Source of the DNA: Eledone cirrhosa
Lineage: Eukaryota
Direction: 5' to 3'
Assembly (NCBI GenBank): GCA_964016885.1
Contig: OZ024743.1
Location: forward strand, 190,154,001-190,218,000
DNA length: 64,000 bases
Under the pieces are notes generated by a model that saw nothing but the letters and a program-made list of their open reading frames with translations, searched no databases and was not told where the DNA came from. The position numbers were made by a program, and so were the translations under genes. Shown one piece after another: positions 4,916 through 31,554 of this stretch; within the stretch, counting starts at the first letter, position 1, and the number at the start of each line of letters is the position of its first letter.

Positions 4916-5425
4916 TAACGTACGCATATAAACATAGTTAGTAACCAGGATAATAATGAACACAAGAACTAAATAAACTATATGAAAAGCATTTTTTTCT
5001 TTAGTTCTGTTTGTTATATATGTTTTGCCACTACTTCAATCCAATTATTATTTCCTAACAGAGAAATGTTTCTCGAAATATATATATATCAAATGTTTGA
5101 ATGAATAAAAAAAAAAGATATATAAACACATGATACCACACTGCATTTCAATATCATATTTGAATCGTGTTATCCTTGAAATAATGTTGACAAGAATACA
5201 AGCAAATAATATATGTAACTATCTCATCTCTGTGTGTGCCTCCCTGTGTACTGCTCTTTCTCTCCTTCTCCTCTCTCTCTTTCGCTCTCTATCTCTCCCT
5301 GTATATAAATATATATATATATATGTGTGTATATATATATATATATATATATATATATATATATATATAAAATAATAATAATAATAATAATAATAATAAT
5401 AATAATAATAATAATAATAATAATA

Positions 5426-8400
5426 ATTGGTTTATTTAAATTAGATGAACAAAAATTGGCCGGGCAGGCTCGGGTAATAAGAACTAATGGATGGATAAGC
5501 GAGCTGGAACTGGAGGAACTGAGCAGAGAGAATGGCTTGGAGATGGCGGGTGTAGTATGCCAGACAAGCGAGCCAGTGGGAAATGAAGGTGAAGAGGTCC
5601 TGAGAACGGAGGAACCACCCGAAGCAGACAATGATCTGAATACTGAGATAAATAATACCTGGAACAGAGATACGGCCACTGAGGAGATGAATGCTGACGG
5701 GCTAGGACAAGATTTGGTTGACATCCTAAATTTAGTGGTAGATGAATTGAACAATGATAGTGGGAGACCTATGAACCTAAGATTTGTAGACAGGAAAAAG
5801 TTAAAAGAAACAACAGCTAAGGTAAACAAAGTCATCCCATACCTTGAGGCGAGGAGCCTTCACCAGTGCAACAATATCCTCAAAGCAACAGCAAATACGG
5901 TGAGGAAACTACTTGGTATAAAAGCGAGAGGAAACAACAGACAAGAAAGAGCAGAGCCGTGGTGGAAGAAGCGACTGAGTGGGCAAATCGGGGAAATGAG
6001 AAATGACATAGGAAAGCTTGAGTCACTACTGAATGGGACACTAAAAAACATAGGCACTAAAAATAGGCTGGAAATAAAATACAAAACTAGGAGGAAAAAG
6101 CTAAATATTATCATAGAGGAACTGAAGCAACGCATTGTAGCAAAGAGTGCAAAAATCAGGCGATACGAGAACAGAGTCAGTCAGTATAAACAGAACCGCA
6201 TGTTCGACAACAACCAGAAGATGCTGTTTGGACAGCTTGAGGGGAAAGAAAGAAGCAACGACTTGATCCCTGGGGCGGAGCAAACTAAAACATTCTGGAG
6301 AGGAATATGGGAGCAGGATGTTAGACACAATGCCCAGGCAGGGTGGATTGAGACAGTACAGAGGGAGATCGGTGAGCAGGCACAACAACAAACTGATTTG
6401 AGTATCACAGTTGAAACTCTTAAGGGGCAGGCCAAAAAACTAACCAACTGGAAATCACCAGGCCCAGATGGTGTGCAGGGGTATTGGATTAAACATTTAA
6501 CATCCCTCCACCCGAAGCTGACGGCCATGTTCAATGACTGCTTGGTGTCGGGTGAGGTGCCAGAGTGGTTGACAAAAGGTACCACAGTTCTGATAATGAA
6601 AGACCGAATCAAGGGTAATGATGTTACCAACTATAGACCTATCACATGTCTGTCCGTAATGTGGAAACTGTTGACGAGCATTGTGTCTGAGGAAATCTAC
6701 CATCACCTCCACACAAACAACTTGTTACCGGACGAACAGAAAGGATGCCGAAAGAAGTCACGTGGTACAAAGGACCAGTTACTTATTGATAAGATGGTAA
6801 TGGGGAATTGCAGGAGGAGACACACTGATCTTGCCATGGGATGGATAGACTACAGAAAGGCATTTGACATGGTGCCTCATTCCTGGATCACCAAAAGCCT
6901 GGAGATCTTCAGGGTGGCAGATAACATCAGACAGTTGCTAGGCAGGAGTATGGGGTCCTGGGAGACAGAGTTGACATCAACTGGAGTATCCATGGGAAGC
7001 GTGAAGATCAAGAGAGGTATCTTCCAGGGAGATAGCCTGTCCCCTCTGTTGTTTGTCCTTGCCCTGATGCCCTTGACCATTATGCTGCGAAAAGTGAGAG
7101 CAGGATACAAGTTGGGAAGGGGAGAGCTTACCATCAATCACCTCCTCTTCATGGACGATCTTAAGCTCTTCGGGAAAAGTGAGAAGGAGTTGGATGTGCT
7201 TGTTGACACTGTCCGTATTTTTAGCAGTGATATATGTATGCAGTTTGGTATTGGTAAATGTGGAGTCATTGTGATGAAGAGGGGTAGGTTTAGCAGAAGT
7301 AACGGGATCCAGATACCAACAGGTGAGATGATAAAGGAAATTGACTCTGAGGAAGGATACAAGTATTTGGGCGTTCTGGAGGCTGATGGCATAAAGAGCA
7401 AAAAAATGAAGGAATTGTTAAGAACTGAATACATTCGGAGAGTAAGGAGCGTATTGAAGTCACATCTGAACAGCAGAAATGCCATAAGCGCAGTAAATTC
7501 CCGAGCTGTGTCTATTATTAGGTACAGTGCGGGAATTCTGAGATGGAATGTTGCTGAACAAAAAGAAATGGATAGGAAGACTAGGAAGCTATTGACTATC
7601 TACAACATGTTCCACAAGAGGAGTGATGTCGATAGACTCTACCTAAGGAGATCTGAGGGTGGAAGAGGTCTTATCAGCATAGAGGACTGTGTTCAGATGG
7701 AGAAAAACAACCTATACAAACACGTGACCTATAGTAAGGAGCCAATGCTCAGAACTGTGCTGAAGGAGGGGACAGTAGGCCAGGGGATGTCCAAGGAGGA
7801 AATAACATCAAGGAGGAAGAGCAGCCTTAAGGGAAAATCCCTTCATAGTACCTTCTTTGAGAAAACTGAATTTAGAGATCCACAGACATGGAACTGGTTG
7901 AGAAGAGGAGACCTCAAAAAGGCTACAGAAGGAATGCTAATGGCTGCGCAGGAGCAGGCCCTCAAAACGAAGTGGTTGAAGCACCATATCTACAAGGAGG
8001 AGGCTAGCCCACTGTGCAGGATCTGTGGAGAGAGAGAGGAGACTGTGGCTCACATTGTGTCCGAGTGTAAACACCTAGCCCAGACCCACTATAAGGGCTG
8101 GAGACACGATGTGATGGGCAGGGTGATCCACTGGCACCTGTGCAAAGTAAACAATTTACCACATTCTGAGAAATGGTATGAGCATAGGCCAGAGGCGGTG
8201 ATGGAGAACAATCAGGTGAAGGTGCTGTGGGATTTTAGGATACAGACGGACAAAAAACTGGAACACAATAGACCTGACCTGGTGGTTGTGGACAAAGAAA
8301 ACAGATCGTGTCTGATTGTGGATGTGGCCTGCCCGTTCGACACGAGAGTGCAAGAGAAGGAGAGGGAGAAAATTAACCGATACCAGGACCTAAAGTGGGA

Positions 8401-29047: not shown

Positions 29048-31125
29048 TTACCGTACTTTTGGTAGAGGAGGGATGGTTTTTACATCCCTTTTCACTTGAT
29101 CGTCTGGTGAAGGGACCGTTGAATCGTCCCTTCGGCTGGTCGTCGGCTCTTCTAAGAGAATGTCTGAATATACTCTTCGATTGATGGTTCCTCCTAGGTC
29201 CCTGAAATCACCAACTGCGTTGGGGAATTTCGTTTTAATGTTTGTGTATTGTTTCTGTGCTATTTTTAGCAGTCTTATGTTAGTTGGCGTTTTGATTGGT
29301 ACTGGTATTATGTAGTCCTGTTGTGAAATGTCTGTGTGTTCAATTATGTAAGTCATTAGTTTCTTGTTGTGTGTATTTATTGCCGTGCATTTGTTTTTCT
29401 GGGGGTGGGGTGTGGTTCTGCTATTTTCTTGTCGTTGTTGCTGGGTGTGTGTGTTTTGTTGTTGTGTTTGCGATGTTGGTGCTTGTGGTGGTGGTGTTAA
29501 AGGTGTTGTTGGCGGTGGTGATGGTGGTGCTAGTGTGGGTGGTGATGGTGTTGGTGTTGTTGCTGCTGTGGGTCTCTTTGCAGTAGACTTTACCCTTTTC
29601 TCATTTCTTTCCTCCCTTTTCAAAGGCGACGATGCGCTGCTTCTGCGTTTGTGCCTTCTTACGACCTTTTGCCATCCCTCTCCCACCTCACACTCCATGT
29701 CTGATTCTGTGAGGTCGGGGAGGGGTACCAGCTCCACTCTTTCACTTGTTGTTGGTGATGTTTGCACTGGAGTCTCTGTTGCAGCTGCATTTGGTATTGC
29801 TGTTGTTGTTGTTAATATTTCCACTGCTGCTGCTGTTTTTGATTTCCGTGGAGTGGGTATGGGTGCCACGGACCTATCGTTCCTGGTTGCCGCTTGTCCT
29901 GTTGCTGGTAGCCGTGGAGCCGGATTCGGAAGGAGGGGGGTTTTCTCCTTTCTCAGGGTCTTCTCGTTGCAGAAGGCCCTGAGGTGAGTCTTCGATCCAC
30001 AGCGAAAGCATTTCGGGCGTTTGCCCTCAACACTTATGGGCAGTTGAGTGCCGTTACGAAGTCTATCACATCCGGGATAGCTTCGATGCACTCCTGGTTG
30101 GTTTGGATTAGCATCTCAATGGAGGAGCCGACCCAATCTTCTCTTACTTTTTTCTGTACTTGCAGTACAGTTGTTTTGTCCTCGATTCCGACGAGGACAG
30201 ACGCGGCCAGCCAAGAAGGGGTCATTCCGGGGGGGACGTGGGTTAGTTTGACCCTCACAATTTTTTGCCCACAGTAGGAGGGCACCAACACCATTTCCTC
30301 GCTCCTTAGGGTCACTACTGATTGGGCCTTTGCCTCCTGGGGTGTGGCAAAAAGTACGTCTACGGTGGCATATTTTTTGCCTCGGGTGATGTGCGTTTTC
30401 CGCTGCCACACAGACCCCAAGGCTTTTTGTATTTGGGCCTCTGTGGCTCTTTCCACCCTACGGGATTGTGTACTTACTGTACGATACGTGACCGTACAGT
30501 GCTCTTGGGTTTCGAAAAATTTTTCCGCTGCCTTGCAGATTGCTCGGTGTCCGTTCTTTGTAACCATCTTCTTCGCTTCCTCTAATTCCTCATTTGTTAT
30601 GAGGATTGTTTCCAAGTTTTTCGCAATACCTGCAAATGAGATTGGTTTTTCTCTGCTGTTGTTGTTGTCGTCAGAGCTGCTGGTACTTTTGTTGTTGCTG
30701 CAGGTACTACGACTACTGCCTCCGCCGCTGTTGCTGTGGTTGTTGTTGGTGTTGCTGCTGCTAATGCTGTTGTTGTTTATGCTGCTGGTGATGCTGTTGC
30801 GGCTGCTACTGTTGTTTTCATTGTCACTGTTGCTGTTGTTATTACGGCTGCTACTGCTATTATTCCTGACGTCAGACGAATGAACTGGGTTTTCGTATTT
30901 CCCGCACACCTGTTTCGTCGCTGTCGTCGTCGTCGTGGAGAAACTTTGCACGCTTTGCACGAGACTTTTCTTTTCTTTCGTCACTTGCGAAAGAGAAGGG
31001 AGGGAGAGAGACACATTTAAAGAAGGGAGGGAGAGAGACAATCTTCTCTCTGCTGTAGTGATGATTGAGGAAGAAGAAGACGGAATGAGTGGGAGTGACG
31101 TATGAAATTTCTTTTTCGTAGCCAT
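29048..31125 (-). pseudogene. Tx1 ORF1 gag-like protein, one frameshift near 30060
   Basis: ORFs 31125-30034 and 30091-29048; SFAGIAK motif, CFRCGSKTHLRAFC zinc knuckle, N/S- and P/T-rich tracts; homologous to the ORF1 pieces of A/B. Confidence 0.8.
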
Positions 31126-31554
31126 GTTGTTTTTTGTTTAAAATGAATATTGGGTACAAAACCCCAATAACTGGTTATTTAGCCCCGAAGGGCCAAATAA
31201 CGGACAGAAAGACCCCTCTCACGAGGAGGAGGGTGTCTTTATCAACAATTTGATTCAAGTTTTAAACAATTTACAATTGTTTTAACGGTTAAAAATTACT
31301 ATACCTTACAGAGCCGAGCCTCCGTCAACCATGGCATTCAATAATAATAATAATAATAATAATAGTCGAAAAGGAGGAAAATTACATAATGGCAAAATGA
31401 CTAAATAGCTAAATAGCTAAATGGCTAAGTGGACAGACGGAAAAATAATTTCACCACGAACACCACCACCACTACCACGCTAAAAACTCTACTCAAGTTA
31501 CCTCAACTTCTATTTCTACTTCAACTTCAACACCATCACTACAGTACTACGATC

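What the first reader, a model, noticed from the sequence alone, without database searches (positions are those of the whole stretch)
5371..31363. 26-kb retrotransposon stack inside one (AAT)n microsatellite with strict strand polarity
Seen: nine insertions (three of them produced by the tandem duplication) are each separated only by (AAT)n. All RLE-type R4/Dong elements are on the AAT strand and all APE-type Tx1 elements and the SINE are on the ATT strand. None interrupts another's body. Known: Dong targets TAA repeats. Inference: two unrelated endonuclease classes converged on the same trinucleotide target from opposite strands, and each insertion leaves a new tract, so the array grows itself. 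The tail-to-tail and head-to-head layout could yield dsRNA or piRNA-cluster-like transcripts.
Basis: partly seen in the sequence, partly recalled or inferred. Interest (0 to 1): 0.75.

Follow-up and report, generated by a model that had tools for sequence, protein, structure and literature searches.

The report
Two LINE classes stack in AAT
Two unrelated kinds of jumping gene and a short passenger element sit end to end in AAT repeats facing opposite ways, here and at over a thousand other places in this genome, likely because each enzyme nicks a different strand and each landing copies the target, which is a new target for a known habit.

Summary
Confirmed, but one instance of a genome-wide habit. 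Nine segments are separated only by (AAT)n; RLE (Dong-like) copies read the AAT strand, L1/Tx1-like copies and a SINE the ATT strand. Genome-wide, 1371 of 1465 T1 5' ends abut (AAT)3 and 0 have reversed polarity; RLE 5' ends: 434 of 599 (one strand) versus 4 of 1141 reversed. Truncated copies follow suit. SINE and T insertions show Y^ATTAT targets with 10-21 bp duplications and share a covarying 3' hairpin, so T likely moves the SINE. Corrections: only six insertions are independent; the duplication is an unequal crossover between two T copies; the array continues through a split older RLE copy to 52011; longer stacks exist; the SINE needs no microsatellite. No RNA run was listed, so dsRNA/piRNA is untested. 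APE/RLE convergence (Keno/Utopia) and opposite-strand sharing (TRAS/SART) are published; an ATT-targeting Tx1-like lineage was not found in my searches. The scan noted this before at many other places in this genome.

The parts
5371..5427 (+). (AAT)19 tract, left edge, next to a (TA)n run
5428..8670 (+). RLE-type LINE family A (Dong/R4-like), 5'-truncated; open frame 5309-8587 with RT, CCHC knuckle and PD-(D/E)xK end
   Evidence: 99% to other copies
8692..8814 (-). 3' 123 bp of the SINE
8830..14540 (-). T1: full-length APE-type L1/Tx1-like LINE, frames broken
14541..14612 (+). 72-nt head-to-head tract (T1 5' end / B 5' break): neither neighbour's tail
14613..15267 (+). RLE family B, 655-bp 3' fragment
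15286..17032 (+). RLE family B, 1747-bp 3' fragment with an internal deletion
17084..22799 (-). T1': chimera, T2-like up to 17475 and T1-like from 17497; crossover interval 17476-17496
22875..23529 (+). duplicate of B 14613-15267 (100%)
23548..25294 (+). duplicate of B 15286-17032 (1 difference)
25346..31339 (-). T2: full-length APE-type LINE, other 5' UTR/ORF1; ORF1 with CX2CX4HX4C knuckle, ORF2 EN-RT-zf in pieces
31340..31363 (+). (AAT)8 head-to-head tract between T2 and the older A-type copy
31364..31985 (+).
44274..45237 (+). continuation of the same A-type copy after about 12.3 kb of other elements; 3' part lost
45241..52011 (.). second stack, same polarity: T(-) 45256-46553, A(+) 46629-50034, B(+) 50068-50799, T(-) 50812-51592, T(-) 51614-51791, SINE(-) 51804-51999, all joined by AAT tracts

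Best explanation
The stack is a pile of target-primed insertions by two unrelated LINE groups that both land in (AAT/ATT)n, and it likely grows because each group nicks one fixed strand and each landing leaves target on both sides. Shown: RLE families A and B read the AAT strand, the L1/Tx1-like T families and the SINE read the ATT strand, genome-wide; T and SINE insertions begin Y^ATTA(T) and duplicate 10-21 bp; T and SINE share a 3' hairpin with loop CUUGU; the middle 8.26 kb is a duplication whose central T is a T2/T1 chimera. Inferred: the APE endonuclease nicks the AAT strand at the T-purine step (ATAAT^R) and the RNA end pairs with the nicked strand; the RLE protein nicks the ATT strand; orientation follows from which strand is nicked; duplicated target plus tail and slippage give new tracts, so existing stacks collect further copies; T proteins move the SINE; same-direction paralogues then recombine unequally.
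For: T1 5' ends: 1371 of 1465 followed by (AAT)3, 0 of 1465 by (ATT)3. A/B 5' ends: 434 of 599 reverse-strand matches have (AAT)3 within 6 nt (forward count double-counts), 4 of 1141 have (ATT)3, and those four are AAT tracts that flip to ATT at the end. Copies picked by internal 3' sequence: truncated A 22 of 24 and truncated B 25 of 31 have AAT upstream; T 22 of 22 full-length and 12 of 27 truncated have ATT upstream, 1 AAT; background 110 of 8002. Census of 386 tracts: 558 element ends fit the polarity, 16 do not. Base before the SINE duplication is C/T in 18 of 19, a position outside the primer pairing. T duplications 14-20 bp starting ATTA in 4 copies. Hairpin: 3 of 4 pairs change on both sides, 0 of 500 shuffles reach the covariation score. 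Neighbour across the tract is a compatible guild element for 131 of 199 anchored ends, incompatible for 3. Chimera: T1' equals T2 at 37 of 40 differing columns to 17475 and equals T1 at 61 of 65 after 17497, plus a shared deletion.
Against: No cleavage was measured; nick sites are read from junctions. No informative RLE duplication in 93 copies, so regeneration by RLE insertions is unshown. 14 of 27 truncated T copies lack a strict ATT flank (some are rearranged, in an ATTATA minisatellite or a (TTC)n run). The SINE is far looser than T, so the endonuclease alone may not explain T's preference for long tracts. Samples beyond the whole-genome counts come mostly from the first 85 Mb of contig C1. 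The hairpin count uses 9 related sequences and a structure derived from them; folding energy alone is not unusual. No empty site was seen.
Confidence: 0.8

Rival explanations
1. Tail-templated targeting: the endonucleases are loose AT-rich cutters, and site and orientation are set by pairing of each RNA's own (AUU)n or (AAU)n end, partly read through from the donor site, with the nicked DNA.
For: Sister T families with the same hairpin end in, and sit in, (ATCT)n or (GTCT)n. The SINE, with almost no tail, uses a 5-nt motif while T prefers long tracts. L1-EN nicking in vitro is less defined than integration (PMC1950540 abstract).
Against: The pyrimidine before the duplication (18 of 19) lies outside the pairing. 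The predicted endonuclease hairpin loop differs between the ATT (NRIGS), ATCT (NNCGT) and GTCT (NNSGQ) families. Endonuclease swap moves specificity in SART1/TRAS1 (PMC7265360 passages). The two views are not exclusive.
Confidence: 0.25
2. Passive build-up: the tracts are only element tails; copies insert anywhere and survive in low-cost regions.
For: In the random 800 kb, about 20 of 47 AAT tracts of 4+ units touch a guild element, so many tracts are element-made.
Against: 35 head-to-head T/RLE tracts are the tail of neither neighbour; truncated copies have the repeat at their 5' break; reversed polarity is nearly absent.
Confidence: 0.03
3. The 8.26-kb duplication is an assembly error that placed two haplotypes in tandem.
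For: The units differ at only 7 bases and one AAT unit in about 7.8 kb; no reads across it were obtained.
Against: A clean T2-to-T1 switch within 21 bp, with T1' 3' end closest to the local T2 (3 mismatches in 413 versus 6-8 plus gaps elsewhere), is what unequal crossover predicts; each unit carries private changes.
Confidence: 0.12
4. The stack is a functional silencing locus (piRNA-cluster-like) kept by the host, with read-through from each class giving antisense RNA to the other.
For: 27 of 70 T 3' ends face an RLE 3' end; A and B have no AATAAA in their last 60 nt while T has one.
Against: Class pairing across tracts is not distinguishable from independent (chi2 p=0.31, Fisher p=0.53); in this stack only the T copies keep a 5' end, all pointing one way.
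Confidence: 0.15

Closest known systems
Dong (R4 clade; B. mori, DongAg, DongBg, Darwinula Dong1/2)
   Same: Single ORF with RT and C-terminal RLE; (TAA)n target, stated to hold in most insects, molluscs and cnidarians (PMC7998251 and PMC3812793, passages read).
   Different: Two families only 39% identical share one 5' leader; no Rfam ribozyme hit at the full 5' end, whereas B. mori Dong self-cleaves there (PMC3774820 passages); thousands of copies.
Kibi (TC)n, Koshi (TTC)n and crocodilian (TTCC)n/(TTTC)n Tx1-clade families
   Same: APE-type L1-group LINEs that insert in a microsatellite (PMC4494074 passages).
   Different: Target is (ATT)n, not listed in the passages read; sister families use (ATCT)n and (GTCT)n; the SINE partner shares a 3' hairpin.
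Keno (Tx1, APE) and Utopia (RLE) in U2 snRNA genes
   Same: An APE and an RLE element evolved the same target in parallel; tandem insertion occurs (PMC4640811 passages).
   Different: They share the same 3' flank (same direction) in a low-copy gene; here opposite strands of a dispersed microsatellite give multi-kb stacks.
TRAS and SART in (TTAGG)n telomeric repeats of B. mori
   Same: Two LINE families in one short repeat in opposite directions, each set by its endonuclease (PMC7265360 passages).
   Different: That both carry APE endonucleases of the R1 clade is recalled; they are confined to telomeres. Here the two endonucleases are of unrelated folds and the arrays are interstitial.
SINEU-3 with Tx1-Mar (crocodilians)
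   Same: A SINE inferred to use Tx1 machinery from shared target; tandem copies separated by a target duplication (PMC4494074 passages).
   Different: Here the SINE is tRNA-like (A/B-box-like motifs) and shares the LINE's 3' hairpin.

Membership tests
R4/Dong clade (families A, B) | Single ORF with RT followed by CCHC knuckle and PD-(D/E)xK endonuclease, no APE | tested here: met
   RVT_1, no Exo_endo_phos; best solved relatives R2, C-terminal RPD..D motif aligned; motifs
R4/Dong clade (families A, B) | (TAA)n target read on the AAT strand | tested here: met
R4/Dong clade (families A, B) | N-terminal SANT/Myb-like domain without zinc fingers | tested here: inconclusive
   No Pfam hit; a WTKELN motif at residue 22 resembles Myb from recall only
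R4/Dong clade (families A, B) | HDV-like ribozyme at the 5' end (shown for B. mori Dong) | tested here: inconclusive
   No ribozyme family hit on a full-length 5' end; Rfam models may miss it
R4/Dong clade (families A, B) | RT phylogeny with named R4/Dong elements | not testable with these tools
   120 listed homologues carried no element names
L1 group / Tx1 clade (families T) | Two ORFs; ORF2 = APE endonuclease, RT, zinc-binding end, nearest to L1 | tested here: met
   human L1 ORF2p E 4e-51 over residues 17-868 versus R2 E 9e-21
L1 group / Tx1 clade (families T) | Target preference (flank in more than 20% of copies, criterion of PMC4494074) | tested here: met
   1371 of 1465; 22 of 22 full-length
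L1 group / Tx1 clade (families T) | RT phylogeny inside Tx1 rather than other L1-group lineages | not testable with these tools
   31 homologues unnamed; atlas clusters unnamed; the Tx1 label rests on architecture and recall
SINE mobilised by T | 3' end shared with the partner LINE | tested here: met
SINE mobilised by T | Same insertion signature as the LINE | tested here: met
   Y^ATTA, 10-21 bp versus 14-20 bp in 4 T copies
SINE mobilised by T | Trans-mobilisation in cells | not testable with these tools
   needs an assay
piRNA cluster / dsRNA locus | Small RNAs or two-strand transcription over the array | not testable with these tools
   no RNA holder listed

The most novel reading that the evidence does not exclude
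The RLE and APE lineages form a co-evolving guild: they share one self-renewing target, the Dong-like families took their 5' leader (likely promoter) from a T-type element, and tail-to-tail stacks give each class antisense RNA against the other, so these arrays are at once the genome's transposon hotspots, silencing sources and sites of unequal crossover.
Probability: 0.2. Interest if true: 0.72.

Novelty: new variant of a known kind. Interest (0 to 1): 0.45.

Why it matters
It gives a very large natural data set for a standing question: how much of LINE site choice comes from the endonuclease and how much from RNA-DNA pairing. One T lineage has sister families on (ATT)n, (ATCT)n and (GTCT)n with different predicted hairpin loops, and a SINE that reports the minimal site, so domain and tail swaps are directly testable. 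A self-renewing shared target could explain the transposon hotspots reported for Octopus vulgaris (PMC13282606, section read), and same-direction paralogues in stacks invite unequal crossover, as seen here. The locus itself is ordinary within this genome.

Tried and rejected
No RNA holder listed, so expression was not examined. Laying public contigs and RAD reads on the left edge gave no record across the tract and no empty site. A read-level check of the duplication was not obtained. DNA search with the A start found nothing (common words are skipped). Rfam over 3000-53000 gave only sub-threshold hits on dinucleotide repeats; ARAGORN found no tRNA gene. Folding energy of the 3' hairpins is not beyond shuffles. 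My first pair count used wrong columns, corrected. First flank tallies (for T) under-called because my references had deletions; T was redone. In one search I dropped 2 of 6 T and 1 of 1 A 'duplications' as artefacts of identical neighbours. Cross-class 5' leader similarity: global alignment positive, local profile search negative at E<=10, no protein similarity beyond low complexity; left open. The Penelope-like element at 38141 was considered as a third guild member and rejected: its short AAT run follows (AT)n in 5 of 6 copies. Class pairing across tracts was not detected. The original Dong paper is not held; supplements of PMC4494074, which may list more Tx1 targets, could not be read.
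Full report
1. Observation. The window is G000:C4:190154001-190218000 of a 3.0-Gb animal genome; that it is probably an octopod rests on recalled resemblance of the SINE and on earlier notes, not on a call. Between 5371 and 31363 lie nine segments joined by ten tracts of 15-75 nt with at most two non-AAT letters each. Families A and B (+ strand) encode RT with a C-terminal CCHC and PD-(D/E)xK region, are nearest to R2 among solved structures and are 39% identical to each other. 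T1 and T2 (- strand) encode APE endonuclease, RT and a zinc-binding end and are nearest to L1 ORF2p. The 123-bp piece is the 3' end of a SINE with A- and B-box-like motifs.

2. Corrections to the anatomy. The duplicated unit is about 8.26 kb. The middle T copy equals T2 at 37 of 40 differing columns up to 17475 and equals T1 at 61 of 65 from 17497 on, and shares a deletion with T1. Its 3' 413 nt differ from the local T2 at 3 positions and from the best other fetched copies at 6-8 plus gaps. This is the product expected from unequal crossover between T2 and T1 (inference); six insertions are independent. The units differ by 7 substitutions and one AAT unit; an assembly error is not excluded. 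To the right, 31364-31985 and 44274-45237 are two parts of one older A-type copy, continuous in L052 and L196, split by about 12.3 kb that includes a hAT-type transposase and a Penelope-like element (RT hit; GIY-YIG motif read by eye). A second stack of the same polarity runs to 52011. Identities to nearest fetched relatives range from 88-96% to over 99% in both classes, so the array grew over time with the classes interleaved.

3. Exact T1 5' ends: 1465; followed at once by (AAT)3: 1371; followed by (ATT)3 within 6 nt: 0. Shared A/B 5' end: 1141 matches; on the reverse strand, where matches are counted once, 434 of 599 have (AAT)3 within 6 nt; 4 of 1141 have (ATT)3, and these are AAT tracts whose last units are inverted. 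Because a full-length transcript could carry the repeat, I also took copies chosen by an internal 3' word (9314 T, 4121 A, 4788 B exact matches; loci mostly the first listed on C1). Of 52 A loci, 26 ran off the edge and 2 were duplicates; 22 of the other 24, all truncated, have AAT upstream. Of 50 B loci, 15 ran off; 4 of 4 full-length and 25 of 31 truncated have AAT. Of 70 T loci, 21 ran off; 22 of 22 full-length and 12 of 27 truncated have ATT, 1 has AAT, 14 neither. Background is 110 of 8002. Across 386 tracts, 558 element ends fit the polarity and 16 do not, several being low-complexity hits.

4. Stacks are common. For 199 anchored ends the neighbour across the tract is a compatible guild element in 131, incompatible in 3, none in 65. 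C1:37.10-37.16 Mb and 37.17-37.22 Mb hold longer runs of the same polarity, with some gaps my library did not annotate. In a random 800 kb from C1-C4, RLE covers 1.4%, T-like 3.3% and SINE-like 2.7% (the last includes one satellite), and about 20 of 47 AAT tracts already touch a guild element. Which class faces which is not distinguishable from chance (p=0.31).

5. Insertion signature. In the random sample 20 of 22 SINE copies are followed by ATTA but only 1 by (ATT)3. Of 62 SINE copies, 19 gave an informative duplication: 10-21 bp (one doubtful 30-bp call in a minisatellite), all starting with A, with C or T before it in 18. Four of 76 T copies gave 14-20 bp duplications starting ATTA; none of 93 A/B copies was informative, 51 having a pure repeat upstream. 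T and SINE end in a hairpin with loop CUUGU; 3 of 4 pairs change on both sides and no shuffle of 500 reaches the covariation score (nine related sequences). One SINE sits inside an A body (L008/L009). Related T families with the same hairpin sit in (ATCT)n and (GTCT)n and differ in the predicted endonuclease hairpin loop, the loop that alters L1-EN specificity when grafted (PMC1950540, abstract and passages).

6. Mechanism. In target-primed reverse transcription (established) the nicked strand primes the copy, so the element reads the other strand. The junctions imply a T nick at ATAAT^R on the AAT strand and an RLE nick on the ATT strand (inferred). Duplication leaves target on both sides (shown for T and SINE, inferred for RLE); tracts between elements have medians of about 15-50 nt, often longer than a duplication, so tails or slippage add units (inferred). 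Stacks then gather more copies and recombine. The main rival, pairing of the RNA end as the chief determinant, probably contributes as well.

7. Comparison. Dong targets (TAA)n in insects, molluscs and cnidarians (PMC7998251, PMC3812793, passages). Tx1 families target (TC)n, (TTC)n, (TTCC)n, (TTTC)n, and SINEU-3 forms tandems (PMC4494074, passages). Keno (APE) and Utopia (RLE) converged on one U2 site (PMC4640811, passages); TRAS and SART use (TTAGG)n in opposite directions (PMC7265360, passages). Dong-R4 and L1-Tx1 are counted as abundant or recently active in cephalopods without a target being named in the passages found (PMC13282606, PMC8967140, PMC9115989). Nine full-text searches showed no ATT-targeting Tx1 family, no octopus SINE-Tx1 pair and no APE/RLE opposite-strand microsatellite stack in the listings or passages I saw; Repbase, the 2004 Kojima and Fujiwara paper and the supplements of PMC4494074 were not available and may hold such a family. 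Clade labels Tx1 and Dong rest on architecture and target, not on a tree with named members.

8. Side result. A and B share their first 390 nt at 76%. Their first 235 nt align end to end with T1 and T2 5' UTRs, up to the ATG that opens T ORF1, better than shuffles (A1-T2 and A1-T1b 0 of 200 in both controls) and than matched genomic windows (0-2 of 1500), but local profile searches do not detect it. I noticed it by eye before testing and before seeing earlier notes that claim it; I leave it open.

9. Verdict. Real, well supported and genome-wide; each ingredient has a published precedent, and the combination and the ATT target were not found in print. New variant of a known kind; interest 0.45. 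Earlier scan notes report the same system at many other places in this genome and once in another genome; they are not independent support.

Noticed in passing
window 31364-31985 and 44274-45237: One older A-type RLE copy split by about 12.3 kb of other transposons; it links the two stacks into a 46.6-kb array (5371-52011).
   Followed up: yes
L197:2340-2730, L290, L291, L293, L297: RLE families A and B, 39% identical in protein, share the first 390 nt at 76%; this leader aligns weakly with T 5' UTRs (global test positive, profile test negative).
   Followed up: partly
L148, L151, L190, L211, L251: Sister T families with the same 3' hairpin end in (ATCT)n or (GTCT)n; L151 shows two stacked on (ATCT)n.
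   Followed up: partly
window 33156-34349 (-): ZBED5/FAM200-like hAT transposase remnant; a hAT-like end at about 44273 abuts the resumed A-type copy.
   Followed up: partly
window 38141-43010: Penelope-like element (RT plus GIY-YIG-like motif) in and around (AT)n runs, with inverted partial copies nearby.
   Followed up: partly
window 59271-60800 (+): Old, degraded third RLE-type family (33-36% to A) with a loose CAA/TAA tail, outside any stack.
   Followed up: no
L156 (G000:C3:17233539-17243538): At least 10 kb of a 45-bp satellite whose unit matches the SINE's tRNA-like head.
   Followed up: no
window 14370-14390 (-), T1 5' UTR: The T1 5' UTR holds a small hairpin resembling the 3' CUUGU hairpin; a T1 5' profile gives many weak hits at SINE 3' ends.
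   Followed up: no
G000:C1:37102000-37217000 (L193-L205): Two longer stacks of the same polarity with several full-length, open-frame A and T copies.
   Followed up: partly
L303-L306: The four reversed-polarity RLE 5' ends sit behind AAT tracts whose last 3-12 units are inverted to ATT, suggesting fold-back at the 5' junction.
   Followed up: partly
window 3427-3729: Two tandem SINE copies on the + strand with short ATTATT ends, outside any long tract.
   Followed up: no
window 52983-55700: Strongly pyrimidine-skewed low-complexity repeat giving a 711-codon open frame with no Pfam hit.
   Followed up: no
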